A stretch of 36,144 bases of DNA from a virus (taxonomy: Duplodnaviria > Heunggongvirae > Uroviricota > Caudoviricetes). A model generated the notes under the pieces. That model searched no databases and was not told the DNA's origin. It saw only the letters and a program-made list of their open reading frames with translations. How positions within the stretch are numbered: position 1 is the stretch's first letter; each line of letters starts with the position of its first letter. The translations under genes were made by a program, and so were the position numbers. Below are positions 2,121 through 26,480 of this stretch, piece after piece. Location: positions 1 through 36,144 of the IMG/VR virus record IMGVR_UViG_3300019935_000001; one strand, written 5' to 3'.

Positions 2121-2127
2121 GCAAAAA

Positions 2128-2145
2128 ATAGTCAAGACTTACTTG
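2128..2145. promoter_or_regulatory. Degenerate operator-like site ATAGTCAA-GA-CTTACTTG
   Basis: 4 mismatches; left flank of the terL-portal hairpin. Confidence 0.4.
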
Positions 2146-2171
2146 CAACCCCCCGTATGGCGGGGGTTGCA
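2144..2171. terminator. GC-rich stem-loop between terL and portal (no U-tract)
   Basis: TGCAACCCCC (2144-2153) pairs with GGGGGTTGCA (2162-2171). Confidence 0.45.
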
Positions 2172-2175
2172 TTAG

Positions 2176-2193
2176 TAAGTAAGTCCTGATTTA
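2176..2193. promoter_or_regulatory. Palindromic operator-like site TAAGTAAG-TC-CTGATTTA
   Basis: 1 mismatch; upstream of portal; overlaps TACTAT (2192-2197), a -10-like hexamer. Confidence 0.75.
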
Positions 2194-2224
2194 CTATCGC
2201 GCAAATCCACTGATTTGGCTGTTC

Positions 2225-3790
2225 ATGGACTCAAAGAAACTCTCGAAGCTGATCCAGCGCCGTCACCCGCAGTACAAAACTCTGCTGGGGCATTGGCAGT
2301 TCCTGGAGGCAACCTACTACGGTGGCCGCGGCTGGTTCTCAGAAAACATCTTCCAATACTACAAGGAAGGTAAAGATGAGTACGCAAACCGCGTAGCCCG
2401 TGCGTACCGCTTCAATCACACCCGCGAAGTCGTTGACCTGGTGAACAAGTACCTGTTCCGGGCCAAACCTGCTCGCCGTGAGAGTGCTCCTGAGTCCGTG
2501 AAACGCTTCTGGGAAAAGGCAACCATCTCTGGACTATCGATTGACGAGCTGATGCGTACCGCATCTATTAAATCGTCAATCTTTGGGCGCCCATGGATCG
2601 TTGTAGATTCCTCTGTTCAGGACAATGAGGGTGAACGATCGGTTGCAGATGACCAGGCCGGAGACGGCCGCATCTACGCATACCTGGTGAAGCCGGAAAA
2701 CGTCCTGGATATGTCCTACGACGATCAGGGCAACCTGAACTGGATTCTGATCCGCGAGCAGTTCCGGGATGATGAAGATCCGTTTGAAGATGATGGCTTT
2801 GTTAGCCACCGATACCGCCTATGGACTCGCTCAGATTGGTTCCTGATCACGCATACAGACCGTAAGCGAAAGGCGGTTGAGATTGCAGGTCAAGGCTCCC
2901 ATGACCTGGGCGAAGTACCAGCGATCCCGGTTGATAACCAGATTGGCGACGACAACTACGATTCCCCTGCTCTGATTGCAGACATCGCATACCTGGATCG
3001 TGCGTGCGCCAACTACGCCAGTAACCTGGATGCGATCATCCAGGATCAAACCTTTTCCCAGTTAGCGATGCCAGCTCAGGGGGTGCTACCCGGAGATGAG
3101 GCCCACGACAAGATGCTTGAAGTGGGTACCAAACGTGTTTTCACGTTTGATGGCGAAGGCGGTAAGCCTGAGTTCCTGTCCCCTGACCCACGCCAGGCCC
3201 AGCTGATCATTGAAGCGATCCAGCAGATCATCAATGAGATCTACCACAGCGTTGGCCTGGCAGGTGAGCGCACTAAGGCCGACAACTCGAAAGGTATCGA
3301 TAACTCTTCTGGCGTGGCCAAGAGCAAGGACTTTGAGCGAGTGAATGCTCTCCTTGTCTCAAAGGCTGACAGCCTGGAGCGTGTCGAAAATCGCCTTGTG
3401 CATCTCGTTTCTCTGTGGGCCGGTGAAGCGCCACCTGAGCACGATCTGGTTTCCTATTCGGAGGACTTCGACGTTCGTGAGCTGTACGACGAGTTTTACA
3501 TTGCCATGCAGCTGTCCCTGATCGACACCCCAGATGGTGTGCGCCGGGAGCAGATGAAGAAGGTAGTGGACAAGCTGTTCCCTCACATCGCCGAAGACAA
3601 GCGCAAACAGATGTTGGATGAAATCGAGAATTGGCAGTTCGCAAGTGATCGCGCAGCTGCCGATGCCGAATCCAACGTCAAATCCAAAGTTCAAGAGGAG
3701 GCGAGGCGTGACCGTGATGCCGCTGGAAACAAGCAGGCACGCACGAAGGAGCTGACCTCTGACTCACAAACCCCTGCTTTGACCGAGTGA
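2225..3790 (+). CDS. Portal protein
   Basis: 521 aa between terL and scaffold/capsid; SPP1-like portal features (R..R...NHTREVVD, PENVLD, HDLGEVPAIP, SGVAK). Confidence 0.9.
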   Translation: MDSKKLSKLIQRRHPQYKTLLGHWQFLEATYYGGRGWFSENIFQYYKEGKDEYANRVARAYRFNHTREVVDLVNKYLFRAKPARRESAPESVKRFWEKATISGLSIDELMRTASIKSSIFGRPWIVVDSSVQDNEGERSVADDQAGDGRIYAYLVKPENVLDMSYDDQGNLNWILIREQFRDDEDPFEDDGFVSHRYRLWTRSDWFLITHTDRKRKAVEIAGQGSHDLGEVPAIPVDNQIGDDNYDSPALIADIAYLDRACANYASNLDAIIQDQTFSQLAMPAQGVLPGDEAHDKMLEVGTKRVFTFDGEGGKPEFLSPDPRQAQLIIEAIQQIINEIYHSVGLAGERTKADNSKGIDNSSGVAKSKDFERVNALLVSKADSLERVENRLVHLVSLWAGEAPPEHDLVSYSEDFDVRELYDEFYIAMQLSLIDTPDGVRREQMKKVVDKLFPHIAEDKRKQMLDEIENWQFASDRAAADAESNVKSKVQEEARRDRDAAGNKQARTKELTSDSQTPALTE

Positions 3791-3809
3791 CCGGTCAGGA
3801 GAAGAAGTA

Positions 3810-4709
3810 ATGCCACGTTCACTGTTTTTGCAAAATCAGGCCGCTCTGGCCGGTCGTATGTACATGGCCCCAGCGGGTGACCACGGTTCCGAAGATGGAG
3901 CAGGTGGCACCGGTGCGGGCGAATCCGGAGAAGGTTCCGAAGAAGGCGATGAACAGGGCGATGCTGATGCTGATGCCGATGCTGGCTCTGACGAAGACGC
4001 TGACGGCGATGAAGGCAACAAGCTGTCCGACAGCGAAGCCCGCCTTCTGAAGGACATGATGAAGAGCAAAAACCGTGCGAAGGCCGCCGAAGAAGAAGCT
4101 GGCAGCCTGAAGCAGCAGCTCGAAGCTCTGACCGAATCTTTGGGCGGCAAATCCCCTGAAGACATTGCAGCTCTGCTGTCTGCCGAGCAGGAAAGCGAGC
4201 GCAAAAAGCTGGAAGAGAAAGGCGAGTACAACCGTATCGTCGATCAGATGGCTGAAGAGAACAAATCCATCGTGGACGACCTGAACGTCACCATCGACCA
4301 GCAGAAAACCGAGATTGTCAGCCTGCACGCTCAGATCGAAGAGCTGACAGTCGGCCGTGCCTTCAGCGATTCCCAGTTTGTATCCGATGACCTGACATTG
4401 CCAATGTCTATCACTCGCAAGGAGTTTGGTACTCACTTCGAGCTGGTTGACGGCCAGGTGGTCGGTTTCGATAAGCCACGCGGTTCAAGCGACAGAACTC
4501 CGCTGGTTGATAACCAGGGCGCAAACCTGAGCTTTGATCAGGCTATCGCCCGCCTCGTCAAGGGCCACCCGGAAGCTACCCGACTGCTGCGCAGTAAGGC
4601 AAAGCCAGGCGCTAAGTCCACTTCTCAAGAGAAGCCGGGCATGAAGTCTGACCAGTCTGCAGTGAGCGGCCAGTCCCGTATCGAGCGTGCCCTGAACGGC
4701 AAAAAGTAA
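3810..4709 (+). CDS. Capsid scaffolding protein
   Basis: Acidic Gly-rich linker then long coiled coil (EQESERKKLEEKGEY); immediately upstream of the major capsid gene. Confidence 0.8.
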   Translation: MPRSLFLQNQAALAGRMYMAPAGDHGSEDGAGGTGAGESGEGSEEGDEQGDADADADAGSDEDADGDEGNKLSDSEARLLKDMMKSKNRAKAAEEEAGSLKQQLEALTESLGGKSPEDIAALLSAEQESERKKLEEKGEYNRIVDQMAEENKSIVDDLNVTIDQQKTEIVSLHAQIEELTVGRAFSDSQFVSDDLTLPMSITRKEFGTHFELVDGQVVGFDKPRGSSDRTPLVDNQGANLSFDQAIARLVKGHPEATRLLRSKAKPGAKSTSQEKPGMKSDQSAVSGQSRIERALNGKK

Positions 4710-4734
4710 CTCCGGTTATTTTTACCCAGATAAG

Positions 4735-4752
4735 TAAGTAAGACCTTACTTA
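4735..4752. promoter_or_regulatory. Palindromic operator-like site TAAGTAAG-AC-CTTACTTA
   Basis: Perfect consensus; upstream of major capsid; overlaps TATATT. Confidence 0.8.
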
Positions 4753-4778
4753 TATTTTGTACTTAGGAGAAGTAAATA

Positions 4779-5684
4779 ATGCCACTTTTGCGTACTGTCG
4801 CAGAGAACCTGTCTAACAACGACCTGGTTGCAGGTGTAGTTGAAGAAGTAATCGACCGCGACTCGCTGTTCGCCCTGCTGCCGTTTACTAAAACGACTGG
4901 CAAGGCTTACGTGTACAACCGTGAAGGCACCCTGTCTGAAGGCCAGTTCATTGATGTGAACGCGACCGTTCCAGAAGGCGCGAGCACAGTTGTTGAAGTA
5001 ACCACTAAGCTGCGCGTCCTGGCCGGTGATGTGGACGTTGACAAGTTCCTGTCTGAAACCATGGATGACACCAATGCACAGAAGGCGATCCAGATCGCAA
5101 TGAAGGCAAAAGGTCTGGGCCGTGCATTCCGCCGTGCTCTGATCAATGGTGATTCTACGTCCAACGCCCTGGAGTTCGACGGCATCGACAAGCTGGTAAA
5201 AGACACCAGTAACGAGCTGGTTGTGGGTGCTAACGGTGCTGCCCTGTCTCTGTCCCACCTGGACGAGCTGCGCGACATGGTTCCAAACACACCAGATGCG
5301 TACATGATGCGCTCCGGTACTTTCCGTGCCCTGAAACAGCTGCTGCGTGCCGCTGGCGGTAACACTGCAGAAATGCTGCAGCTGGAGAACTTCGGTAAGC
5401 CAGTTCCAGCGTTCGACGGCGTGCCAATCATCATCAACGACTTCATCCCAGGTGACGTTGATCAGGGTTCCGCAACCGACACCTGCTCTATCTACGCCCT
5501 GCGCCTGAACGAAGTTGACGGCCTGCACGGCCTGTACGGTGGTGACACTGCAGGTATCCGTGTTGAAGACCTGGGCACAGTTCAGGACAAAGATGCTACT
5601 CGTACTCGCCTGAAGTGGTACGTGGGTCTGGCTCTGAAGAGTACTCAGTCCCTGGCTGCTCTGCGCGGTGTAACTAACGTGTGA
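4779..5684 (+). CDS. Major capsid protein (HK97 fold; SSU5-like)
   Basis: 301 aa, AGGAG SD, strongly biased high-expression codons, followed by a terminator. Motifs LSNNDL.GV.E..IDRD.LFA.LPF, LAGDVDVDKF, FDG.PII.NDFIP and KDA.RTR.KWY recalled from SSU5-type capsid proteins. Confidence 0.92.
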   Translation: MPLLRTVAENLSNNDLVAGVVEEVIDRDSLFALLPFTKTTGKAYVYNREGTLSEGQFIDVNATVPEGASTVVEVTTKLRVLAGDVDVDKFLSETMDDTNAQKAIQIAMKAKGLGRAFRRALINGDSTSNALEFDGIDKLVKDTSNELVVGANGAALSLSHLDELRDMVPNTPDAYMMRSGTFRALKQLLRAAGGNTAEMLQLENFGKPVPAFDGVPIIINDFIPGDVDQGSATDTCSIYALRLNEVDGLHGLYGGDTAGIRVEDLGTVQDKDATRTRLKWYVGLALKSTQSLAALRGVTNV

Positions 5685-5689
5685 TAAAG

Positions 5690-5707
5690 TAAGTAAGAGC
5701 TTACTTT
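5690..5707. promoter_or_regulatory. Palindromic operator-like site TAAGTAAG-AG-CTTACTTT
   Basis: 1 mismatch; between capsid stop and terminator. Confidence 0.75.
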
Positions 5708-5709
5708 TT

Positions 5710-5734
5710 AACGGGGGCTAATGCCCCCGTTTTT
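5710..5734 (+). terminator. Rho-independent terminator after major capsid gene
   Basis: AACGGGGGC-TAAT-GCCCCCGTT followed by a T run. Confidence 0.85.
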
Positions 5735-5750
5735 GTATCTGGAGAAAGAA

Positions 5751-6191
5751 ATGCCACACGTAATTCTGAAAGGTAAAGGCTGGGAAGGCTTCAACGGCCT
5801 ATTTGGCCAGTATGAGTTCAAGGATGGTCGATCTGTTGAGGATCTGCCCACCCTGGAGGCGTCCCGGCTGGCGGCCATTGCCCCAATCGAAACAGAAGAG
5901 GGTCACAACCCTTCCCCATCCCAGCAGCTGATCGATATGCGCGATGTTCGGGCGTCTGACAAGCGAACTACAACCCGGCTTGTACGCGATGCGGAATCAG
6001 AGAAAGCCGCTCAGAAAGCAAATGAGTGCGATTCTGCAGTGCCGACTATCACTCGCGAACAGCTCGAAGCAATCGCAGATAAGCGAGGTATTAACGGCCT
6101 GCGTGAGGTGGCCTCCGAGTACGGTGTGACCTCGAAGTCTATTCAGGGCCTGATCGATGGCATCCTGGCAGTAGCCGAGAGCAAAGCCTGA
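5751..6191 (+). CDS. Putative head-associated protein with C-terminal Rho-N/HeH-like helical domain
   Basis: GGAG SD at 5741-5744 supports ATG 5751 rather than 5721. C-terminal TREQLEAIAD..GINGLREVA..YGV resembles small helical domains often found just after capsid genes. Confidence 0.55.
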   Translation: MPHVILKGKGWEGFNGLFGQYEFKDGRSVEDLPTLEASRLAAIAPIETEEGHNPSPSQQLIDMRDVRASDKRTTTRLVRDAESEKAAQKANECDSAVPTITREQLEAIADKRGINGLREVASEYGVTSKSIQGLIDGILAVAESKA

Positions 6192-6949
6192 TGGAAACCT
6201 TCATTGCCGACCGGGATCTCGATGTAGAGATCCAGTACAGCGACAGCGAAGGCACGGCGATCACTCCGGTTTCGGCTTCGTACTCCCTGATCGACGAGAT
6301 GGGCACGGCAATTCTGGATGGGGTCGTACTGGCCCCATCTGCGCCAACGGAGACGATCACGGTGCTGGGGGTCAACAACGCCTTGCTGCCGTCAGCAGTT
6401 CGCGGCTACCGTGAGCTTACTGTTACCTATGTCGATGATCAGGGCAAGGTTCGCGACTTCAACAAGACCTGGTTGATTGAATCCCGCACGACCCTCAGCC
6501 CGGGCCTGACCAGTTTTGCAACTAACGGGAGCATGATCCTGACGGCGGTGGGCCTGGCAGAGGTCGAGGAGTTCCTGAACGCACCGGTCAAGGAGCAGAT
6601 GGTCAGCCTGCATCAGGCGTACCGCAATATCGCTCAGCTGCCGGTGCTGATCACAATCAACGAGAAGGTCTACACCTCAACTGCAGAACTGGATGCACCC
6701 ACCCTCGCCTCTCTGGGCAGGCTCAACCTGGACACCCTGAAAACTGCGCAAGTTATTGAGGCCAACTTCCTCCTGGGCGGCAACCCAATGGAACAGCGCC
6801 GCAGAGATGGGATTCTGTCCGAGTCCATTGGTGAGGTCAGCCAGTTCTTCCGAACCAGTAAGCCCCTAGTGATGCCGGTGTGTCGAGAAGCCGCCCGAGT
6901 CCTGGGCAAATTTATGGCCCCGAGCGCCAAAACCCTGAGACGCGGGTGA
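6191..6949 (+). CDS. Head-tail adaptor/connector-like virion protein
   Basis: TGATG-coupled; position after capsid; C-terminal AQVIEANFLL...GILSESIGEVSQFF is typical of SPP1 gp15-like adaptors (S.SIG..S..F). Confidence 0.65.
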   Translation: METFIADRDLDVEIQYSDSEGTAITPVSASYSLIDEMGTAILDGVVLAPSAPTETITVLGVNNALLPSAVRGYRELTVTYVDDQGKVRDFNKTWLIESRTTLSPGLTSFATNGSMILTAVGLAEVEEFLNAPVKEQMVSLHQAYRNIAQLPVLITINEKVYTSTAELDAPTLASLGRLNLDTLKTAQVIEANFLLGGNPMEQRRRDGILSESIGEVSQFFRTSKPLVMPVCREAARVLGKFMAPSAKTLRRG

Positions 6950-6966
6950 TTGCCTGCGCTCTTTAG

Positions 6967-6984
6967 TAAGTAAGCTCTTACTTT
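6967..6984. promoter_or_regulatory. Palindromic operator-like site TAAGTAAG-CT-CTTACTTT
   Basis: 1 mismatch; upstream of the neck/tail genes. Confidence 0.75.
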
Positions 6985-7012
6985 TGTTTGTAGCTATTGG
7001 TAACATTGCGAT

Positions 7013-7372
7013 ATGACTACGTTTCGATCCACGGAGAAGGCCACTTTGTCGGAGCTGACCGGCTATGACTGGCAGGGCCAGCCCGAGTACGGCACCGAAA
7101 AAGAGGTTCGCTGTTCAGTCATTTACTTTCAGATCGGCCAAGCGGATACATCTATCCGAGCTGACCGATCTGAAACTAAGGGTCGTGCAGAAGAGGCATA
7201 CGGGAAGATCCGCATCCTGGTTGAGCCGAGGGCCAGCATCCAGGCCGGTCAACGGATGAAGCTGGATGGGGAAACTCTGCGGGTGCTGACTGTTTTCCCT
7301 CGCCATGGCCTTGGCGGAAAACTGCATCACTACCAGGTGGACTTAGAAGTATGGCCAGACGAGCAAGAATAG
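7013..7372 (+). CDS. Head closure (stopper) protein
   Basis: 119 aa beta-rich; YG.P.YG start and G.LHHYQVDL end; neck-module position. Confidence 0.65.
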   Translation: MTTFRSTEKATLSELTGYDWQGQPEYGTEKEVRCSVIYFQIGQADTSIRADRSETKGRAEEAYGKIRILVEPRASIQAGQRMKLDGETLRVLTVFPRHGLGGKLHHYQVDLEVWPDEQE

Positions 7373-18905: not shown

Positions 18906-19988
18906 ATGACCACTGTCACTTCATCATTGGATAGAGCTGTCACCTGGGGCGAAGTGACGGACACCTGGGGCGGCAGTACGGTCCTGATGGGTCGTACATG
19001 GGGTCTGTTTGGTTCTAACCTAATTCAGTTGGGCCTTACAGACGGCCTGTCGGTTTCTGACACCTACACGGACCAAATCGGATACCTGCTGGGCATTCAC
19101 GAGTCCCTATCGGTCACTGATGCTGCTGCCAACATGGCCGCAATCAGTCTCGAAGAGCTGGTGACAATGGTGGATGCACAACCGGTTCATAGCGTAACCC
19201 GGTCGATTCATGAGGCCTTGAATGTGGCTGACCCTATCGACTTTACCGCGGATTACCACCGACTGTACCAAGAAGCTGTAGGCATTCTGTCGGTCAATGG
19301 CAACCATACAGAGCGCTCATTTGATAGCAGCTTTGGCATGGGTGGCGGCCAGGTAGCATCTCATATCCAGCCCAACTTTATTGAGTCCCTGCAGGTTGCG
19401 GACATTATCGGTCGAATCGCATCTTTTAGTATCTCTCTCAAAGAAGGTGTGGGAGTCAACAGCGCATACGGGAGCGCCATGACGCTCCCAGTAGCTGAGT
19501 CTCTCAGCATAGCCGATGCGTACCTTCGCAATGCCGACACGGTTGTCAGCGACCTGATTCTCAGCGCTGGCGACATATCAGAGGATACCTTCCTACAGTT
19601 CATGCGGCGAGCGAGCCCGGTGGGGTTCACCGAGTACGCTGAGTTCGTAGAGGGTGAGTACGAGTACCAGGAGGCCCTATTTCGAATCGTCATGGAATCG
19701 GCAGCCGAAGACCGTGCACTGGTTGACTCTCTGAAGATCCATATCGATGTCCCTGATGTGAATGAGGCAGGCAAGGTGACCGTCCCCGCCACATCAGGCG
19801 GCGCTACGGTGGCCTTCCAGCGTCACTTCAATGCAGAGCCGGAAGTAACTGTAACTCTCAAAGGCGGCACAGTTCTGGCTCTACCCAATGTGACCTCCTC
19901 TGATCAGAACGGCTTCACAGTCACACTCAAAGATACCAGCGGCAACCCGGTTTCGGGTACTGTCAGCTGGGTAGCACAAGGTTATTGA
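18906..19988 (+). CDS. Virion structural protein with repeated E.L.V.D motifs and C-terminal beta-sandwich (H-lectin/gp53-like)
   Basis: Repeats such as IHESLSVTD, IHEALNVAD, FIESLQVAD, VAESLSIAD; C-terminus V.FQRHF...P.V.VT...GFTV...VSWVAQGY. Confidence 0.55.
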   Translation: MTTVTSSLDRAVTWGEVTDTWGGSTVLMGRTWGLFGSNLIQLGLTDGLSVSDTYTDQIGYLLGIHESLSVTDAAANMAAISLEELVTMVDAQPVHSVTRSIHEALNVADPIDFTADYHRLYQEAVGILSVNGNHTERSFDSSFGMGGGQVASHIQPNFIESLQVADIIGRIASFSISLKEGVGVNSAYGSAMTLPVAESLSIADAYLRNADTVVSDLILSAGDISEDTFLQFMRRASPVGFTEYAEFVEGEYEYQEALFRIVMESAAEDRALVDSLKIHIDVPDVNEAGKVTVPATSGGATVAFQRHFNAEPEVTVTLKGGTVLALPNVTSSDQNGFTVTLKDTSGNPVSGTVSWVAQGY

Positions 19989-21068
19989 ATGCAACAATAC
20001 ACATCTATCAACGGGGCTACGCTGATCACGCAGGCTCCGGGTAAGCTGATGGCGAACATCGATACCCTGCTGTCGAGCAATGAAGGTACGGTGTTCCCTA
20101 GCTCCAACAATGTGATGGGCCGGGTCTGCTACCGCAGCGACCAGAAGAAGCTGTATCTGATGACGGATGATAGTCCTGCCACCTGGAAGCTGATCTCTGA
20201 CTTGTCCAAAACCTACGTGACGTATGAAGACTGCAACACGGACTTCATCAACAAAAGCAAGGTTACCAGTTCACTGACCGACACCAGTACATCGAAGGTG
20301 GCATCAGCCAAGGCTGTGAAGACTGTCCAGGACAATCTGAACAGCCACACCACAGCATATGCCGACTTCGTTGGCCAGATCTCCAAGTCATCGGCTTCGT
20401 ACATCTTCTCCAACAACATCTCGCTGGTTCGGGATGCCGCCACCCTGACAGTCCAGGGCGGTGCAGTTGGGGCGGACAATGGCGAGCGAACGTCTGCCCT
20501 GCAACTGGGCCGTTCCAACTCCCGAGCCTTTAACGTGGTGACTCACGGCACAGGGTATACATTCTTAGGGTCAGGCGGCCTGACTTCCTCGCGTTTGCCC
20601 ACTCACAACGCCATGCGCTTTGCCTATGGATCGAACTCTGTGCTGTTTTACGGAACGGTGGATGTGAACGGCAGGCTGGATGCGAACTCCGGTCTGAATG
20701 TGAATGGCTCGACCGGCATGGATGGCAACGTGACCGTTGACGGCACCGTGGCGGTAACCGGCCAGATTTCATCGACAGGCAACATTACATCTGGCGGAAC
20801 AATCACGATGGCATCCGATGCCCGACTGAAGAGTGATATTGAAACCATTGAAGGGGCGCTGGACAAGGTAACTGGGATGCGCGGCGTGATGTACACGCTC
20901 AGGTCATCGGGCGAGCGCCGCCCTGGAGTCATTGCCGACGAGCTTGAAAAGGTACTTCCCGAGGCTGTTGATCGCTCTGGCGAATACAAGTCCGTTGCTT
21001 ACCAAAACCTGGCAGGGTTACTGATCCAGGCCATCAAAGAGCTTAATGACAAGGTGGAGGCCCGATAA
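19989..21068 (+). CDS. Tail fibre 1 with C-terminal peptidase S74 intramolecular chaperone
   Basis: SDARLKSDI cleavage motif, GVIADELEKVLPEAV, VAY..L.GLLIQAIKEL. Confidence 0.88.
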   Translation: MQQYTSINGATLITQAPGKLMANIDTLLSSNEGTVFPSSNNVMGRVCYRSDQKKLYLMTDDSPATWKLISDLSKTYVTYEDCNTDFINKSKVTSSLTDTSTSKVASAKAVKTVQDNLNSHTTAYADFVGQISKSSASYIFSNNISLVRDAATLTVQGGAVGADNGERTSALQLGRSNSRAFNVVTHGTGYTFLGSGGLTSSRLPTHNAMRFAYGSNSVLFYGTVDVNGRLDANSGLNVNGSTGMDGNVTVDGTVAVTGQISSTGNITSGGTITMASDARLKSDIETIEGALDKVTGMRGVMYTLRSSGERRPGVIADELEKVLPEAVDRSGEYKSVAYQNLAGLLIQAIKELNDKVEAR

Positions 21069-22996
21069 TGGAGGCGTACCAAAATATTGCAAGTTCTGAC
21101 ACGGTAAAGGATAGCCGTAACGTTATTAACAATAATATTCTTACAGCGATCAGCCAGTCTGCTGCGACTTCGTTTCCAACCACTCATGTGCTGGCGGGCC
21201 GTACCTGCTACAGGACTGACGAGCTGATGCTGTATATCTGCAACGACGCGGACCCTCAGTCGTGGATGCCAATGTTCGACCTGGGCTCAGGTAAGTCGCC
21301 GAATGCGCAGAAGCTGGACGGGTACGACTACACCGCTTTTTTGCGCAAGGGCGACACTGCTGATCAGAATCTGGAATCCGACCGTATCACGTTGGGCGGC
21401 AGCGCTGTGGATGGCATGCGCCGCAGTACCGAAGGGGTCCATATTGAGCAGCACTCTTCCAGCTCGAAGCGGCTGTACATCAATTCCATCGGTAACGTGG
21501 ATCTACAGGCGGACTCGAACGAGAACGGGTCTGGCGGCGTAATCCGGTTCCATGTTGGTGCCAACCAGCTGGCCTATATCGACTCCAGTTACTTCACCTT
21601 TGCAGGCAAGTCGGGCTACGTCAAAGCCCGATTTGGGGCCGCCGGTTCTGACGACACATTCGTGGAGTTTCGGGACAACACTTCCGATACCTGGCGCCAC
21701 TTTGGCTTCGACGCCTCGGCTCAGGACTGGTACGCAGAGATCCCAGGCAATCGCTGGAAGCTGTGGCACCAGGGTAATGATGCTAACCTGGTGAAGAAGG
21801 ACCAGAAGAATGTGATTGTTGTCCCGGACTCCGTAGCCAACCAGACGATATATGCCAACAGTATAGAGATGTACCCTACAGGATCGGATACGCTAACTGC
21901 CGACCACTCTCATATAGGGAATCGAGTATATATCGCCTCAGATGCTTCAGGCGGGGATGCTGTAAACGAGCACCGCCTCTACGGTTCTTACACATATGTG
22001 GTCGCCAATGGGGACTCGGACATTGTTTACGGTACTTACAGCTACGGTCGCAGCAATGTGCCAGCTGGCGAGTCCTGCTCCGACGTTAGAGGAGGCTACA
22101 ACGTCGGTGTCGGAGCTGGCGAGGGCACTGTTAGCAATATTTATGGCTGCGTGAACTACGGCATCTCATCTAACATAGGTCCGGTTGGCAGCCTATATGG
22201 GTCTCACAACCGGGCTCAAGTTACCTCGGTAGCAACCGGATCTGTGACTTCGGCATACGGGGTCTACTCAGAGGTGGAGGTTGATGCGGCAAGCGTCAAC
22301 AACATCTATGGGGTTCGATCCGTCATAGACATTGATGGTGGAGCCACCGACAACGCTTACTTGTTTCACGGTGAATATCAAGGTTCCCTCTCTCCCGATT
22401 CCTACGGGATCTACATCGACTCTAACGTTGAAAACCATCTGGGGGGCAACCTACTGGTAGAGAATGGAATCCAAGTTAATGGCTCCGATTGGAACCGCAA
22501 CTTCCGCATTCGTGGTCCTGCTCCATGTATCTATTTTGATCAGGACGATGACTCAAATGACAAGGCAATGCTGGGCCTAAATGGCGAAGAGTTGTACCTA
22601 CTGGCAGACAAAAATGCAGACGGGGTATTTGATTCCACCTCTCCGTTCCCGATGCAGGTCAATATCAACACCGGTGTGGCTCTGTTCAAAGGATCAGTTG
22701 GTCAGGCATCCGATGAACGCCTGAAGGAAGATATTCAGCGTATTCTGAACCCGGTCGAGAAGATTCGACAGCTGGGTGGTTACACGTATACCCGTATTGA
22801 CACCGGTGAGCGCCAGACAGGTGTACTGGCTCAGGAAGTGAAACAGGTGTTGCCAGAAGCTGTGCGCCAGTTCGCAGATGACGGAATGATGACCGTTGCG
22901 TATGGGGAAATGATTGGCCTGGTTCTGGAAGGCGTTCGGGCACTGGACGAGCGGATCACCGCTTTGGAGGAGATAAATGTCACTCAAGGCCAATAA
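21068..22996 (+). CDS. Tail fibre 2 with C-terminal peptidase S74 intramolecular chaperone
   Basis: SDERLKEDI motif, GVLAQEVKQVLPEAV, VAYGEMIGLVLEG; N-terminus paralogous to fibre 1; internal YG repeats. Confidence 0.88.
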   Translation: MEAYQNIASSDTVKDSRNVINNNILTAISQSAATSFPTTHVLAGRTCYRTDELMLYICNDADPQSWMPMFDLGSGKSPNAQKLDGYDYTAFLRKGDTADQNLESDRITLGGSAVDGMRRSTEGVHIEQHSSSSKRLYINSIGNVDLQADSNENGSGGVIRFHVGANQLAYIDSSYFTFAGKSGYVKARFGAAGSDDTFVEFRDNTSDTWRHFGFDASAQDWYAEIPGNRWKLWHQGNDANLVKKDQKNVIVVPDSVANQTIYANSIEMYPTGSDTLTADHSHIGNRVYIASDASGGDAVNEHRLYGSYTYVVANGDSDIVYGTYSYGRSNVPAGESCSDVRGGYNVGVGAGEGTVSNIYGCVNYGISSNIGPVGSLYGSHNRAQVTSVATGSVTSAYGVYSEVEVDAASVNNIYGVRSVIDIDGGATDNAYLFHGEYQGSLSPDSYGIYIDSNVENHLGGNLLVENGIQVNGSDWNRNFRIRGPAPCIYFDQDDDSNDKAMLGLNGEELYLLADKNADGVFDSTSPFPMQVNINTGVALFKGSVGQASDERLKEDIQRILNPVEKIRQLGGYTYTRIDTGERQTGVLAQEVKQVLPEAVRQFADDGMMTVAYGEMIGLVLEGVRALDERITALEEINVTQGQ

Positions 22997-23240
22997 CACC
23001 GAGGTTATCGGTGCTGATGGAAAGATTCACTGGGGCCGTCTGAAGTCAGTACCCGGTCTCGTGCAGGATGGGCAGATCCGAACCCAGGAGCCACCGTACC
23101 AGTACAACTGTGAGGGCTCCGGTACTTCGATCACCTACCGGACCACCGGTATGGAGTACATGCCCGGTAATAAGTACCGACTTCGCCAGATCAAGGTGAA
23201 GTCCACTTCTAACTGCAACTGTAACTGCGGGAATTTCTAA
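22977..23240 (+). CDS. Small protein ending in Asn-Cys repeat (STSNCNCNCGNF); candidate modification substrate
   Basis: Strong SD GGAGGAG at 22966-22972, overlap with fibre 2 and TAATG coupling to the next gene support a real gene. NCNCNC is encoded at 23211-23228. Confidence 0.8.
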   Translation: MSLKANNTEVIGADGKIHWGRLKSVPGLVQDGQIRTQEPPYQYNCEGSGTSITYRTTGMEYMPGNKYRLRQIKVKSTSNCNCNCGNF

Positions 23241-23971
23241 TGCTTCAGGTCGCGGTAACACCCGTAAAGGGCTATGGGAAAGGCGTCCGGTTATCGACTG
23301 ACGGTAACGGTCTGCTGGTTGAGGCGGTTGACGAAAACGGGGATCTGACCGCCAGTAACTATTTGAGCGAAGCGATTGTGCGTGGCTCGATGGGCCAGAA
23401 GGAGATCTCTGACGCCTCGAATATCTATGTGCGTGTACGGGACGATGGATCGGTTCATAGCATGTACAACAAGTTGGTGAATAGCTTCGATAGCAAGGAC
23501 TCCGGGTTCGTGCACATTGCAAAAATGGGCCATAAGGTGGGCGGGCAGATTCACATCCCCTACGCCGACAGTCCGCTGAGCGAGTGGGGGCTGCGCGTGA
23601 ACTATGATGCCGACGCTGGCGCAATTGCGGGGCCAGGTGTTGAGCTGATTGAGGTTCCACTGGGGGAGGATTCGTTCCATGCGCTTGCAAATCAAAACCT
23701 CCCCACGCTCAGGGTTTCTGATGTGGAAACTCAGGGGGATCACTATCGTGTGACGGTTCAAGTTGTGCGTTCAGGGAACGACGACAAGCGCTCTGGTGTA
23801 GCTATCTACGCGAAGAGTGATTCAGGATACATTGCTCAGAGAAAACTGCTCACAAACGAACTGGGGCGGGCACAGTTTAAGTGTGCCAGGTTACTGCTGG
23901 AGGACTCTGAAGAGTTCGTTGCAGAGTTTGGCTTCAAATTTTTGTCCAACATCACCAGTGTAAGCCTTTAA
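23240..23971 (+). CDS. Hypothetical beta-rich protein with probable C-terminal Ig-like (Big-1-type) domain
   Basis: TAATG-coupled. C-terminal VTVQVV...GVAIYAKSDSGY.....LTNELGRAQF pattern resembles bacterial Ig-like domains. Confidence 0.55.
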   Translation: MLQVAVTPVKGYGKGVRLSTDGNGLLVEAVDENGDLTASNYLSEAIVRGSMGQKEISDASNIYVRVRDDGSVHSMYNKLVNSFDSKDSGFVHIAKMGHKVGGQIHIPYADSPLSEWGLRVNYDADAGAIAGPGVELIEVPLGEDSFHALANQNLPTLRVSDVETQGDHYRVTVQVVRSGNDDKRSGVAIYAKSDSGYIAQRKLLTNELGRAQFKCARLLLEDSEEFVAEFGFKFLSNITSVSL

Positions 23972-23985
23972 TCGCCCTGCTATAG

Positions 23986-24003
23986 TAAGTATCTGCTTAC
24001 TTA
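23986..24003. promoter_or_regulatory. Palindromic operator-like site TAAGTATC-TG-CTTACTTA
   Basis: 2 mismatches; preceded by extended -10-like TGcTATAGT (23978-23986); upstream of hydroxylase and rSAM genes. Confidence 0.7.
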
Positions 24004-24016
24004 GCAAGGTATAGAA

Positions 24017-24814
24017 ATGCTTACTCTATTGGATGCAGCAAAACAGAACCTGGACTGGGGAGGCGCAACCGAAAGGTTGAACCCGGCCAGGTTCGATCCC
24101 AACCTGACAATTCCGAACCTGGATACGCGCGGCCTTTCCGAAGCGGTCACGGCTCTGACTGAATCCCAACCTTGCATTCCATGGCAATCCGCTCGGAACT
24201 CCAGCCTGTACGGCATGGGCCTGACATATGACCCGTCCAGTGGAAAGCCATACCTCGATTGCTTTGGCGATCCTTACTACCTTCGGTACTCCACCGATGA
24301 ATACTTCGATGCTGTAGAGGCTGACGACAAGCAGAGGGTTAGAGGTGGCTATCTGGACTGCCTACGGTACGACACCCTGACTCCAGCGGTATATGCCAAT
24401 CCACGACTGAGGCAGCTGTTCGAGAGCTTCCGGTTGCCTGTAGTGCGCAGCTCGTTGCGAATCATTGACGGCAATGCTGTTAGCCCATCCGCACCTTCGG
24501 GAGGCTACCACTGCGACGAGAGTCCTTTCGATTGCCTCCGGCTAAATATCTGCGTGGACACAAACGACAGTTTTGGCCTGCAGTATGAAGGGCGACCGCC
24601 AATGTTCCTGTCCGCTGGCGACCACCGGATCGTGATGACTCACAAGCGGCACCGGGCGTTCGTCGTTCGCCAGTCTGATTTTCAGCGAATCCATATTGTG
24701 ATCAGCGTGGTGCCATGGCTGAAGAAAACCCAGAGCGGCAACTGGGTACCAAACGAATACTTCGGGGAAATCCACCCCTTCGATATGGTCAAAGAGGGCC
24801 TTCTTCTGAAATGA
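24017..24814 (+). CDS. Fe(II)/2-oxoglutarate dioxygenase, aspartyl/asparaginyl beta-hydroxylase-like
   Basis: H165-x-D167 (YHCDE), R.NI.V.TN, distal H212 (HRA) and R224 in RIHIV match the Asp_Arg_Hydrox-type facial triad and 2OG-binding Arg. Confidence 0.78.
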   Translation: MLTLLDAAKQNLDWGGATERLNPARFDPNLTIPNLDTRGLSEAVTALTESQPCIPWQSARNSSLYGMGLTYDPSSGKPYLDCFGDPYYLRYSTDEYFDAVEADDKQRVRGGYLDCLRYDTLTPAVYANPRLRQLFESFRLPVVRSSLRIIDGNAVSPSAPSGGYHCDESPFDCLRLNICVDTNDSFGLQYEGRPPMFLSAGDHRIVMTHKRHRAFVVRQSDFQRIHIVISVVPWLKKTQSGNWVPNEYFGEIHPFDMVKEGLLLK

Positions 24815-26091
24815 AATACCAACTCAAGATGGAGGCCCCTGATGGCCGCCATGAATATCTCGACTTCGATTCAAAGCTGGGTACGCTGACACGCAATGGT
24901 GTGCCGTTCGATACCTCAGATCTGCGCCAGTCCAGCCCCAACCCAGAGCAGATTCACAAGGTAAGTCCGGATAGCCCAGGCCGAAAGGTGAGCGCACCGA
25001 AGGTTTTGAAAATCCAGCTGGGGCTGAAGTGCAATTACTCTTGCTCCTACTGCAACCAGGCCTCAGAGGTACCCGGTGCCGTGGTTACCAACAAGCGTGA
25101 TGCCGTTGAGTTTCTGGCAAACCTGGACAGCTGGCTGCAGGAGCCTCCGGAGAGAATTGAGCTGTGGGGTGGCGAACCGCTGGTGTACCTGTCGAAGCTG
25201 AAGGTTCTGGTGCCAGAGATCCGCGATCGATTCCCGGATGCCCAGATCGGCATGATTACGAATGGCAGCCTGCTGAAAGATGAGACGGTTGACTTCATTA
25301 TCGATCACCAGATCAACGTCGGTATGTCACATGACGCATATGGCCAGGCACAGCGCGGAGATGATCCCCTGCAGGATGATCGGGTGCTGGCAGCAGTGCA
25401 CCGCCTGGTTGCAGAGCATGGCGATCGCTTCTCTATCAATTCGGTGATCACCGGTTCGAGCCTGGATATGGCCTCAACCATTCGGTACTTCCAGGCCATT
25501 TTCGGGCCAGGCGTTCAGGTGCTGTTTGAAGACGTTGTGAACTACCACGACGATGGCGCCATTGATTCTAACCAGATGACGAGCCAGCAGCTGGCCGAGC
25601 TGTCTGACAATGTGTTCTATGGTGTGGCCGGTGACAATCTGCTGGAGAGCCCAGGCGTCCAGTCAAAGATCGTTCGCTTCCTGGCTGGCCTGAATAGTGG
25701 CTTCTCCATGGATCAGGCGTATTCCAAATGCGGAATGGATCGGCCAGACCATATTGCGTGCGACCTGGCCGGCAACATCGTCACTTGTCAGAACGTGGGC
25801 GCCAGCGGCAGACATCTGGTTGGCAGCGTATACAAGATGGAGGGTGCCCGACTGACCAGCTCCCTGCACTTCTCACATCGAAAGAACTGCCAGGACTGCC
25901 CGGTGCTTCGCCTTTGTGGCGGCGGCTGCATGTACCTTCACGGCGATCACTTCCAGGCCAGCTGCAAGGCTCTTTACCAGTACAACATGGGTTATCTGCG
26001 AGCAGCACTGTACCTGTTGACAGGTCTGGCCCTGGTTGAAGTGACCCAGATCGGTCAGCCATCATTAATTCCTTGCATTTCTTCCGAATAA
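24811..26091 (+). CDS. Radical SAM / SPASM-domain protein
   Basis: ATGA overlap gives start 24811 (426 aa). CNYSCSYC (CxxxCxxC at 25030-25053), WGGEPL, ITNGSLL, and C-terminal SPASM cysteines (KCG...ACD..GNIVTCQ...CQDCPVLRLCGGGC...C). Confidence 0.93.
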   Translation: MKYQLKMEAPDGRHEYLDFDSKLGTLTRNGVPFDTSDLRQSSPNPEQIHKVSPDSPGRKVSAPKVLKIQLGLKCNYSCSYCNQASEVPGAVVTNKRDAVEFLANLDSWLQEPPERIELWGGEPLVYLSKLKVLVPEIRDRFPDAQIGMITNGSLLKDETVDFIIDHQINVGMSHDAYGQAQRGDDPLQDDRVLAAVHRLVAEHGDRFSINSVITGSSLDMASTIRYFQAIFGPGVQVLFEDVVNYHDDGAIDSNQMTSQQLAELSDNVFYGVAGDNLLESPGVQSKIVRFLAGLNSGFSMDQAYSKCGMDRPDHIACDLAGNIVTCQNVGASGRHLVGSVYKMEGARLTSSLHFSHRKNCQDCPVLRLCGGGCMYLHGDHFQASCKALYQYNMGYLRAALYLLTGLALVEVTQIGQPSLIPCISSE

Positions 26092-26109
26092 TAAGTAAGG
26101 ACTGACTTT
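26092..26109. promoter_or_regulatory. Palindromic operator-like site TAAGTAAG-GA-CTGACTTT
   Basis: 1 mismatch; immediately after the rSAM stop, upstream of the lysis genes. Confidence 0.75.
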
Positions 26110-26150
26110 TATATAAGGGTCTGTGTGCGATACATTAGGCGCTCTGTTAC

Positions 26151-26480
26151 ATGGAGCTGAAAATGTCGGAAGAACAACTTGCCGCTCAGACCACCCTGCA
26201 GTGGACAAACGGGACATTTTGGAGTGTCGCGTTGATGTTCATTGCAGGCACTATCGGGCGTTCTCTGGTTAGCTCCGAACCGTTCTGCGCAAAGAAATTC
26301 TTTGGCGAACTGATCCTGTCCGGCTTGGCAGCGGTCGTACTGTACTCATTCAATGTCATGCAGGGCATGTCTCCAATCCAGATCGTCTTCTTTGGCGCCC
26401 TGGGTGGAATGGGTGGTATCCGCGTTGTCGAGTGGGTCATCAAATTTGCCAAAAAGTGCAGAGCCTCTGGAGTGCTGTAA
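26151..26480 (+). CDS. Holin (LydA/lambda-like, multi-TM); the start may be ATG 26163
   Basis: Three hydrophobic segments, basic C-terminus (KFAKK), directly upstream of endolysin; GGAG at 26153-26156 positions the second ATG. Confidence 0.75.
   Translation: MELKMSEEQLAAQTTLQWTNGTFWSVALMFIAGTIGRSLVSSEPFCAKKFFGELILSGLAAVVLYSFNVMQGMSPIQIVFFGALGGMGGIRVVEWVIKFAKKCRASGVL

What the first reader, a model, noticed from the sequence alone, without database searches (positions are those of the whole stretch)
22977..23240. NCNCNC-tailed protein may be a fibre-tip adhesin rather than a classical leader-core precursor
Seen: a strong SD inside fibre 2, an N-terminus (LKANNTEVIGADGKIHWGRLKSVP) that reads like a tail-fibre fragment, a fourth NC in YNCEG, and no double-Gly leader, exporter or protease nearby. 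Established: in T2/S16-type phages a chaperone-cleaved long fibre (gp37) is capped by a separately encoded adhesin (gp38). Inference: this protein caps fibre 2 and displays a modified Cys/Asn tip. Speculative extension: beta-hydroxy-Asn/Asp and Cys are metal ligands, and beta-OH-Asp is the Fe(III) ligand of many marine siderophores, so the tip could bind iron and mimic a ligand for a TonB-dependent receptor ('Ferrojan horse' idea).
Basis: inference. Interest (0 to 1): 0.75.

Follow-up and report, generated by a model that had tools for sequence, protein, structure and literature searches.

The report
Enzyme-modified cysteine-tailed phage fibre accessory protein
A small phage protein ending in Asn-Cys-Asn-Cys-Asn-Cys belongs to a previously unrecognised family that always sits beside self-cleaving tail fibres and a radical-SAM enzyme, so it is probably a chemically modified piece of the phage's host-recognition fibre, which I found described in no paper.

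Summary
In detail: 22977-23240 is a real 87-aa gene with a strong ribosome-binding site, overlapping the end of fibre 2 and coupled (TAATG) to the next gene. It ends in NCNCNCGNF.

It is not an orphan. It belongs to a family of small phage proteins with three shared parts: a conserved N-terminal motif (MAYKxGxTxVIDxxGxIxWxRIxxxP), a beta-hairpin body and an (xC)n tail.

In 108 non-redundant loci holding relatives of the adjacent radical-SAM/SPASM enzyme, 24 carry this family, and all 24 also carry an S74 self-cleaving fibre. Only 11 of the other 84 do. In other phages the same tail ends true tail fibres (T7 gp17 type) or is followed by a self-cleaving Hint domain.

The protein is very probably the radical-SAM substrate, and probably a fibre-associated virion part rather than a secreted peptide. 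Physical capping of fibre 2 is not shown. The iron/TonB idea has no support here.

This scan has flagged the wider class (phage fibre Cys repeats with radical-SAM maturases) before on other DNA. I found it in no paper. New here are the small-protein family, its strict link to S74 fibres, and tandem triads of paralogs in relatives.

The parts
21068..22996 (+). Fibre 2 (642 aa). It has a C-terminal Peptidase_S74 self-cleaving chaperone domain at residues 548-600. This is the partner fibre type that always accompanies the small-protein family.
   Evidence: Pfam PF13884, E 2.4e-15. PHROG tail-fibre families. 13 of 14 fibres upstream of family members carry S74.
22966..22972 (+). Shine-Dalgarno GGAGGAG, 4 nt before the ATG of the 87-aa gene, inside the fibre 2 coding sequence.
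   Evidence: Read directly from the sequence.
22977..23240 (+). The 87-aa gene: a small Cys-tailed protein of the 'MAYK-motif' family and the presumed radical-SAM substrate.
   Evidence: ORF list. phmmer hits to locus ORFs: L126 1.3e-8, L111 3.7e-8, L117 4.7e-7. Family alignment A3. Single copy in the 102,731-bp virus record.
22977..23069 (+). N-terminal conserved motif (residues 1-31, MSLKANNTEVIGADGKIHWGRLKSVPGLVQD). Candidate docking or recognition element.
   Evidence: An HMM of this motif finds 50 distinct ORFs in related loci, some of them tail-less paralogs. The AF2 monomer shows a beta-hairpin at residues 3-11, block pLDDT 76.
23106..23111 (+). N44-C45, the 'fourth NC', just before the conserved G-S-G turn. 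Not conserved in the family.
   Evidence: Alignment A3.
23211..23228 (+). The (Asn-Cys)3 tail, N79-C84, followed by Gly-Asn-Phe and the stop codon.
   Evidence: C80 and C84 are invariant and C82 at least 90% conserved in A3. Tail statistics over 102 substrates.
23240..23971 (+). 243-aa partner protein, translationally coupled to the 87-aa gene. It has an N-terminal domain without a known match and a C-terminal Big_1 (intimin/invasin-type) Ig-like domain.
   Evidence: AF2 pLDDT 89, pTM 0.84. Residues 154-243 match intimin 1f02 at Z 10.3, rmsd 2.5 A over 84 residues. 89 distinct family members lie beside related rSAMs. Full-length fold matches are only to uncharacterised phage proteins.
24017..24814 (+). 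265-aa Fe/2-oxoglutarate oxygenase-like protein, Asp/Asn beta-hydroxylase-like by fold. An accessory enzyme.
   Evidence: No Pfam hit. Atlas structure matches to PF05118 clusters, TM 0.56-0.63. H165, D167, H212 and R224 are invariant in 6 homologs.
24811..26091 (+). Radical SAM/SPASM enzyme. The likely true start is the ATG at 24811 (ATGA overlap with the oxygenase stop). The longest ORF starts at 24715.
   Evidence: Pfam Radical_SAM. NCBIfam SPASM-maturase families hit far below their cut-offs. C106, C110 and C113 plus the seven SPASM cysteines are invariant or near-invariant. Homologs align from query residue about 30-35.

Best explanation
The 87-aa protein is the substrate of the adjacent radical SAM/SPASM enzyme. 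It is a stand-alone 'tip module' of a widespread phage system that puts an enzymatically modified (Asn/Ala/Asp-Cys)n tail at a free C-terminus of the tail-fibre apparatus.

Proposed sequence of events (inferred):
1. The protein is made late, coupled to fibre 2 and to the 243-aa Ig-like partner.
2. The rSAM/SPASM enzyme modifies the three tail cysteines. The most likely product is Cys-to-Asn thioether cross-links; NCNC contains the N-x-x-C spacing used by NxxcB.
3. The Asp/Asn-hydroxylase-like oxygenase optionally hydroxylates tail residues.
4. The protein, probably as a trimer, joins the virion through its conserved N-terminal motif, most likely on an S74-type fibre whose own C-terminus is removed by self-cleavage and therefore cannot carry such a tail.

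Shown: family membership, gene linkage, and the position of the tail at a free C-terminus.
Inferred: the chemistry, oligomeric state, virion incorporation and attachment site.
For: 1. Cassette conservation. RSP15 and many metagenomic loci share the same four genes: Cys-tailed protein, 243-like, oxygenase, rSAM.
2. Substrate linkage. A C-terminal CxCxC ORF lies upstream of the rSAM in 72 of 107 non-redundant loci and downstream in 0 of 86. With a looser criterion it is 109 of 143 loci.
3. Free C-terminus. Of 102 distinct substrates, 87 have the tail within 8 residues of the C-terminus and 10 have it followed by a Hint self-cleaving domain (Pfam Hint hits).
4. Structural context. The tails end true fibres: L015 has Phage_T7_tail, collagen and CBM5/12 domains, and JWF gp028 shares the window fibres' N-terminus.
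5. The 87-aa protein has real relatives. phmmer gives 1e-8 to 5e-7, and 2e-5 with the tail removed. The N-motif HMM finds 50 distinct ORFs.
6. Link to S74 fibres. Family and S74 together in 24 loci, family alone in 0, S74 alone in 11, neither in 73; Fisher p = 6e-16. Pfam S74 is present in 13 of 14 upstream fibres, and the small gene is often immediately downstream.
7. Tail-less paralogs keep the N-motif. That fits a docking motif better than a RiPP leader.
8. Enzyme type. The rSAM has all three-cluster cysteines. Its nearest solved relatives are the thioether maturase CteB (5wgg) and anSME.
9. Chemistry lead. Asn dominates the first three x positions of the tails: 83, 77 and 63 of about 101. 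NxxcB makes Cys-Asn beta-thioethers and tolerates Ala, Gln or Asp as acceptor (PMC9389541).
Against: - There is no direct evidence that the protein is in virions or touches fibre 2.
- No fused form joining this module to a long fibre was found (weak evidence).
- Small size, a conserved N-terminal segment and tandem paralogs in relatives are also what RiPP precursor families look like.
- The N-motif matches no known fibre family.
- The AF2 monomer is of low confidence, pLDDT 60.
- The rSAM scores far below every curated maturase cut-off, so the chemistry is open. Formylglycine or another Cys modification is possible.
- The locus counts are not phylogenetically independent.
Confidence: 0.55

Rival explanations
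1. It is a true RiPP precursor. The conserved N-terminal 30 residues are a leader read by the rSAM (or the 243-aa protein). The modified C-terminal peptide is released at phage lysis, so no exporter is needed, and it acts as a diffusible signal, toxin or metal binder.
For: The protein is small. The N-segment is conserved while the middle varies. Relatives have two or three tandem paralogs. The enzyme resembles rSAM/SPASM peptide maturases and has an N-terminal extension of about 95 aa. Lysis genes lie immediately downstream.
Against: The family always accompanies S74 fibre genes, 24 of 24. Homologous enzymes act beside tails that are the C-termini of 300-700-aa fibres. Tail-less paralogs keep the 'leader'. 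No leader peptidase and no Gly-Gly site were found.
Confidence: 0.15
2. It is a virion protein but does not cap fibre 2. It forms its own short fibre or whisker attached elsewhere (baseplate, J protein or fibre 1), or it works together with the Ig-like 243-aa protein as a separate adhesin.
For: The conserved N-motif could dock anywhere. The window has two S74 fibres. In several relatives the small gene is separated from the fibre by the 243-like and oxygenase genes. The 243-aa protein has an adhesin-type Big_1 domain.
Against: The small gene overlaps fibre 2 in the window. It directly follows the S74 fibre in L126, L030, L024, L124 and L003.
Confidence: 0.13
3. It is an assembly factor, as T4 gp38 is for gp37. 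It helps fibre folding or trimerisation and is absent from the finished particle.
For: Genes downstream of fibre genes are often chaperones. In T4 gp38 is a chaperone, while in T2 and S16 it is an adhesin (PMC10175313).
Against: S74 fibres already carry their own folding chaperone. An elaborate enzymatic modification of a transient helper is hard to rationalise. In other phages the tail is part of the fibre itself.
Confidence: 0.1
4. One reading: the hydroxy-Asn/Cys tip binds iron and mimics a siderophore for a TonB-dependent receptor.
For: Alternating-residue metal sites exist in fibre tips: the T4 gp37 His-x-His iron needle (PMC10175313) and marine-phage iron-binding fibre proposals (PMC11705849). 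Oxygenases recur in these cassettes.
Against: The AspH-like gene is present in only 8 of 108 related loci. The window tail has Asn, not the Asp whose hydroxy form chelates Fe(III). Thioether formation would consume the thiols. No TonB-related signal was found.
Confidence: 0.05

Closest known systems
Ranthipeptide / sactipeptide radical SAM-SPASM systems: NxxcB/NxxcA, PapB/PapA (freyrasin), CteB/SCIFF. Also QhpD, which acts on the QhpC protein subunit.
   Same: A SPASM-type radical SAM enzyme with three Fe-S cluster motifs sits next to a Cys-rich C-terminal target. Asn, Asp and Ala sit beside Cys as likely thioether acceptors. NCNC contains the N-x-x-C spacing.
   Different: The enzyme scores far below every curated family cut-off: 62 bits against 340-519. 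There is no leader peptidase or exporter. The targets include 300-700-aa virion fibres. The system sits in the phage tail-fibre module. The chemistry is untested.
T2/S16 gp38 adhesin on the tip of the processed gp37 long tail fibre.
   Same: A small protein is encoded just after the distal fibre gene, and that fibre loses its C-terminus by processing. The proposed role at the distal tip is the same.
   Different: There is no sequence or motif relation: no GP38 Pfam hit and no glycine-rich motifs. The protein is 87 aa, against about 250 aa for gp38. It carries an enzymatically modified Cys tail. Binding is not shown.
T4 gp37 needle with His-x-His iron sites.
   Same: An alternating-residue repeat (x-His there, x-Cys here) sits at the very distal end of a trimeric fibre.
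   Different: The ligand residues differ. The T4 needle needs no modifying enzyme. Here a dedicated rSAM implies covalent chemistry rather than simple metal binding.
Phage fibre Cys-repeat plus radical-SAM cassettes noted earlier by this scan (CXXX-repeat, alternating Cys and Hint-fused forms).
   Same: The same logic applies: an rSAM/SPASM enzyme, a helper protein, and a Cys repeat on or beside tail fibres. Hint-fused variants also occur.
   Different: This report defines a distinct small-protein family with an N-terminal MAYK-type motif. It shows the family's strict association with S74 self-cleaving fibres and its organisation as single genes or triads.

Membership tests
Phage Cys-tail / radical-SAM fibre cassette (unpublished class seen by this scan) | An rSAM/SPASM gene lies within a few kb downstream on the same strand. 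| tested here: met
   Gene at 24811-26091.
Phage Cys-tail / radical-SAM fibre cassette (unpublished class seen by this scan) | An alternating (xC)n run lies at the extreme C-terminus or before a Hint domain. | tested here: met
   NCNCNC lies 3 residues from the C-terminus. The family pattern is shown.
Phage Cys-tail / radical-SAM fibre cassette (unpublished class seen by this scan) | A 243-like Ig-domain partner gene is present. | tested here: met
   Window 23240-23971. BLAST E 1e-28 to 1e-34 to partners in L002, L006-L014. 68 of 108 loci have one upstream.
Small 'MAYK-motif' Cys-tailed protein family (defined here) | The N-terminal motif, a G-S-G turn and a terminal Cys run, with significant similarity to other members. 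| tested here: met
   phmmer 1.3e-8 to L126, and 2.3e-5 to L119 with the tail removed. Alignment A3.
Small 'MAYK-motif' Cys-tailed protein family (defined here) | Co-occurrence with a Peptidase_S74 fibre. | tested here: met
   Fibre 2 and fibre 1 both carry S74. 24 of 24 loci with the family have S74.
Ranthipeptide/sactipeptide RiPP precursor | The maturase belongs to a curated family (PapB, SCIFF, Nif11-rSAM and others). | tested here: not met
   Best NCBIfam scores are 62 bits, against cut-offs of 340-519.
Ranthipeptide/sactipeptide RiPP precursor | A leader with a cleavage site, plus a leader peptidase or exporter. | tested here: not met
   No Gly-Gly dipeptide. No peptidase or ABC transporter in the window by Pfam.
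Ranthipeptide/sactipeptide RiPP precursor | Thioether cross-links in the product. | not testable with these tools
   This needs mass spectrometry or NMR of the co-expressed protein.
T2/S16 gp38 adhesin | Sequence or domain homology to gp38 (glycine-rich motifs, GP38 family). | tested here: not met
   No Pfam or PHROG hit at E 0.1 / 0.01. The sequence has no Gly-rich motifs.
T2/S16 gp38 adhesin | Binds the distal end of the mature, C-terminally processed fibre. | not testable with these tools
   This needs a pull-down, cryo-EM or virion proteomics. Only gene linkage is shown.
Asp/Asn beta-hydroxylase (PF05118), for the neighbouring 265-aa protein | A match to the family profile. | tested here: inconclusive
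   No Pfam hit. Structure-level matches to PF05118 clusters, TM 0.56-0.63.
Asp/Asn beta-hydroxylase (PF05118), for the neighbouring 265-aa protein | An HxD...H iron triad and a 2OG-binding Arg. | tested here: met
   H165, D167, H212 and R224 are invariant in 6 homologs.

The most novel reading that the evidence does not exclude
Phages with self-cleaving (S74) fibres add a separately encoded cap, built from one protein (probably as a homotrimer) or from a triad of paralogs (as a heterotrimer). The C-terminal Asn/Cys strands of the cap are covalently cross-linked by a phage radical-SAM enzyme into a rigid, chemically unusual 'stinger' that makes the actual receptor contact. This would be the first enzymatically cross-linked adhesin on a virus particle, and it would blur the line between RiPP natural products and virion structural proteins.
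Probability: 0.3. Interest if true: 0.9.

Novelty: new variant of a known kind. Interest (0 to 1): 0.72.

Why it matters
Tail-fibre tips decide which bacteria a phage can infect. All known tips are plain folded protein, sometimes with bound metal.

A dedicated radical-SAM (and oxygenase) modification of a fibre-tip protein would be a new layer of host-range determination. The enzyme family is present in at least 541 viral contigs and at least 227 metagenome stretches, so this would also be a large unexplored source of radical-SAM chemistry acting on whole proteins.

It would matter for predicting and engineering phage host range. Such fibres would not be functional when expressed without their enzymes.

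The strict pairing with self-cleaving fibres gives a concrete, testable assembly model.

Tried and rejected
- **Homolog searches with the 87-aa protein alone.** The word-index search, phmmer against 1.84 billion representatives and tblastn against 50,697 phage records found only the protein itself. Relatives appeared only after loci were fetched through the rSAM.
- **The 243-aa protein by word search.** Only itself was found.
- **megablast of 21000-26200 against phage records.** No match.
- **tblastn of the N-motif (32 aa) and of the L126 relative against phage records.** Nothing meaningful. No cultured phage with this small family was identified.
- **Profile search for longer, fused forms.** Three hits. 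Two look like frameshifted fragments and one is an unrelated protein with internal SNCNCNCN repeats. No Rosetta-stone fusion was found.
- **Complex prediction of fibre 2 residues 425-547 (x3) with the 87-aa protein (x3).** Score 0.22, below the 0.32 mark, so there is no verdict. This is neither for nor against binding.
- **AF2 monomer of the 87-aa protein.** pLDDT 60, too low for a fold search.
- **Fold searches of the 243-aa model (PDB, VIA wide, BFVD, AFDB clusters).** Only the C-terminal Ig domain and uncharacterised phage proteins matched. No function emerged for the N-terminal domain.
- **A frameshift fusion of fibre 2 to the 87-aa ORF.** Considered and rejected. Anything fused behind the S74 domain would be cut off with it.
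- **The literature library.** No paper links radical SAM/SPASM enzymes to Cys tails on tail fibres.
- **The genome search 'relatives'.** Not available for a virus record.
Full report
**1. The observation**

The ORF at 22977-23240 exists as described. It encodes 87 aa and is preceded by GGAGGAG at 22966-22972. It overlaps the last 20 nt of the 642-aa fibre 2 gene, and its stop overlaps the start of a 243-aa gene (TAATG).

It ends N79-C80-N81-C82-N83-C84-G-N-F and has one further Asn-Cys at residues 44-45. It has no Gly-Gly dipeptide.

The surrounding window is a siphovirus-type structural module (terminase, capsid, tape measure, J-like protein). Two S74-type fibres follow, then the four-gene cassette, then holin and lysis genes and replication genes. 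Pfam finds no ABC exporter or leader peptidase. The record is a complete 102,731-bp viral genome with terminal repeats and carries a single copy of the gene.

**2. The cassette**

| Gene | Finding |
|---|---|
| 458-aa ORF (true start probably 24811) | Radical SAM/SPASM enzyme. The CxxxCxxC and SPASM cysteines are invariant or near-invariant. |
| same | Resembles thioether-forming peptide maturases (PapB, SCIFF, Nif11-rSAM, QhpD), but at about 62 bits against family cut-offs of 340-519. |
| same | Nearest solved relatives are 8vpo, CteB (5wgg) and anSME, at E about 1e-14. |
| 265-aa protein | No Pfam hit. Structurally nearest to Asp/Asn beta-hydroxylase clusters (TM 0.56-0.63). H165, D167, H212 and R224 are invariant. 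|
| 243-aa protein | Folds confidently (pLDDT 89). The N-terminal domain has no known match. The C-terminal domain is an intimin/invasin-type Ig domain (Z 10.3). |
| same | Full-length fold relatives are only uncharacterised phage proteins. |

**3. Relatives of the cassette**

The 87-aa protein alone finds nothing in very large databases. The rSAM does.

- Achromobacter phage JWF and Ralstonia phage RSP15 have homologs next to tail-fibre genes.
- RSP15 ORF048, annotated as a side tail fibre, ends ...SNTNCQCGN. It is followed by homologs of the 243-aa, 265-aa and rSAM proteins.
- JWF gp028 has the same N-terminus as the window's fibres. It carries NCNCDCNCNCSC directly followed by a Hint self-cleaving domain.
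- Profile-based scans found at least 541 related stretches in viral contigs and at least 227 in metagenomes.

Linkage between enzyme and tail:

| Measure | Result |
|---|---|
| ORF ending in CxCxC within 8 residues of its C-terminus, upstream of the rSAM (non-redundant loci with enough flank) | 72 of 107 |
| The same, downstream of the rSAM | 0 of 86 |
| Distinct substrates with the tail at the very C-terminus | 87 of 102 |
| Distinct substrates with the tail followed by Hint | 10 of 102 |

Substrate length runs from 55 to 704 aa. Some substrates are true T7 gp17-type fibres, with Phage_T7_tail and collagen repeats.

The x residue is Asn in 55%, Ala in 19% and Asp in 13% of positions. Asn dominates the first three repeats. 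NCNCNC is therefore the canonical form of the motif.

**4. A family for the 87-aa protein**

Within the ORFs of the fetched loci the protein has significant relatives: L126 1.3e-8, L111 3.7e-8, L117 4.7e-7. With the Cys tail removed, L119 still scores 2.3e-5.

The family (alignment A3) has four parts:
- a conserved N-terminal motif, consensus MAYKVGxTxVIDDxGxVDWSRIxNxP;
- a variable linker;
- a G-S-G turn followed by beta strands;
- the Cys tail.

An HMM of the N-motif finds 50 distinct ORFs. Some of them are 55-60-aa paralogs that stop exactly where the tail would begin.

Loci carry either one gene (the window, L126, L117, L114, L111 and others) or three tandem paralogs (L003, L024, L025, L030, L109, L119, L124, L127, L137). 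The triads are often two tail-less genes plus one tailed gene.

The 'fourth NC' of the window protein sits before the G-S-G turn and is shared by only 4 of 24 members.

**5. Link to self-cleaving fibres**

The fibre upstream of these small genes carries Peptidase_S74 in 13 of 14 cases, counting the window.

Cross-tabulation over 108 non-redundant loci:

| | S74 fibre present | S74 fibre absent |
|---|---|---|
| Small family present | 24 | 0 |
| Small family absent | 11 | 73 |

Fisher p = 6e-16. The loci are not phylogenetically independent.

In the window, L126, L030, L024, L124 and L003 the small gene follows the fibre gene directly or overlaps it.

This gives a simple logic. A fibre that discards its C-terminus by S74 self-cleavage cannot carry a C-terminal Cys tail. 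In these phages the tail sits on a separate small protein. In others it ends the fibre itself, or it is exposed by Hint cleavage.

**6. Reading**

I consider it very likely that the 87-aa protein is the rSAM substrate. I consider it more likely than not that it is a fibre-associated virion component rather than a secreted RiPP.

The most probable chemistry is Cys-to-Asn (or Asp/Ala) thioether cross-linking. NCNC embeds the N-x-x-C spacing on which NxxcB forms beta-thioethers, and NxxcB also accepts Ala, Gln or Asp as acceptor (PMC9389541). This is inference. Other Cys chemistry is not excluded.

Oxygenases recur in these cassettes but come from different families. The Asp/Asn-hydroxylase-like type occurs in 8 of 108 loci, and 2OG-FeII_Oxy_5 occurs in many others. 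Hydroxylation is therefore accessory.

Capping of fibre 2 is plausible from gene linkage. It parallels T2/S16 gp38, which attaches to mature gp37 (PMC10175313). There is no homology to gp38 and no physical evidence.

The iron/TonB idea has nothing in its favour beyond the analogy with His-x-His iron needles.

**7. Rivals**

- **A lysis-released RiPP.** Small size, a leader-like N-motif and tandem paralogs fit this.
- **A separate mini-fibre attached elsewhere on the virion.**
- **A non-structural assembly factor.**

All three remain open and are scored in the rival list.

**8. Novelty**

I found no paper describing radical-SAM modification of phage fibre Cys tails. This scan has noted the broader class before on other DNA: 196 notes in at least 110 genomes.

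Added here: the small-protein family, its strict association with S74 fibres, the single-gene versus triad organisation, tail statistics over 102 substrates, and a confident model of the 243-aa partner.

Noticed in passing
L003 3394-5227; L024 3631-4225; L030 3461-4084; L109 3888-4510; L124 1904-2565; L119 4200-4981; L127 3659-4985; L137 2735-3489; L025 3622-4417: Relatives carry the small family as three tandem paralogs, often two tail-less genes of 55-60 aa plus one Cys-tailed gene. The recurring number three suggests a heterotrimer. I did not test this.
   Followed up: partly
L001 (phage JWF) 4772-6223; L003 4373-5227; L017 2726-3946; L031 298-1146; L087, L094, L127, L135, L178: In about a tenth of the substrates the Cys run is followed directly by a Hint (intein-like) domain. 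The last Cys of the run is the Hint nucleophile, so self-cleavage would leave the Cys tail as the new C-terminus, possibly as a reactive thioester.
   Followed up: partly
L126 1781-8489 (viral contig of 105,962 bp): This is the closest analogue of the window. It has the same fibre N-terminus, an S74 fibre, an 83-aa family member and a 243-like gene. It also has two rSAM genes, two 243-like genes and two 2OG-FeII_Oxy_5 oxygenases. The contig size is similar to that of the window's genome.
   Followed up: partly
L017 (Halomonas sulfidaeris chromosome) 1980-7158: A decayed prophage copy of the system. The rSAM is split into three frames, and the fibre gene is frameshifted before an NCNCDCTC-Hint segment.
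   Followed up: no
window 24715-24814: The longest rSAM ORF overlaps the oxygenase gene by 100 nt. Homologs align only from residue about 33, so the real start is probably the ATG at 24811 (ATGA overlap with the oxygenase stop).
   Followed up: partly
P0005 (236 aa, metagenome protein): This protein has four internal, spaced SNCNCNC(NC) repeats rather than a terminal tail. It may be a different substrate architecture of the same chemistry.
   Followed up: no
L025 82-2031: A 649-aa fibre upstream of a triad ends in its own irregular Cys-rich tail (...TACTCSNLKETTCACGENPTCACET). This locus may have both fibre-borne and separate Cys tails.
   Followed up: no
window 18906-19988 and L001 4238-4711: The C-terminal 150 aa of the window's 360-aa protein is 35% identical to JWF gp027, the gene between the J protein and the Cys-tailed fibre. 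The fibre-attachment context is therefore shared between the two phages.
   Followed up: no
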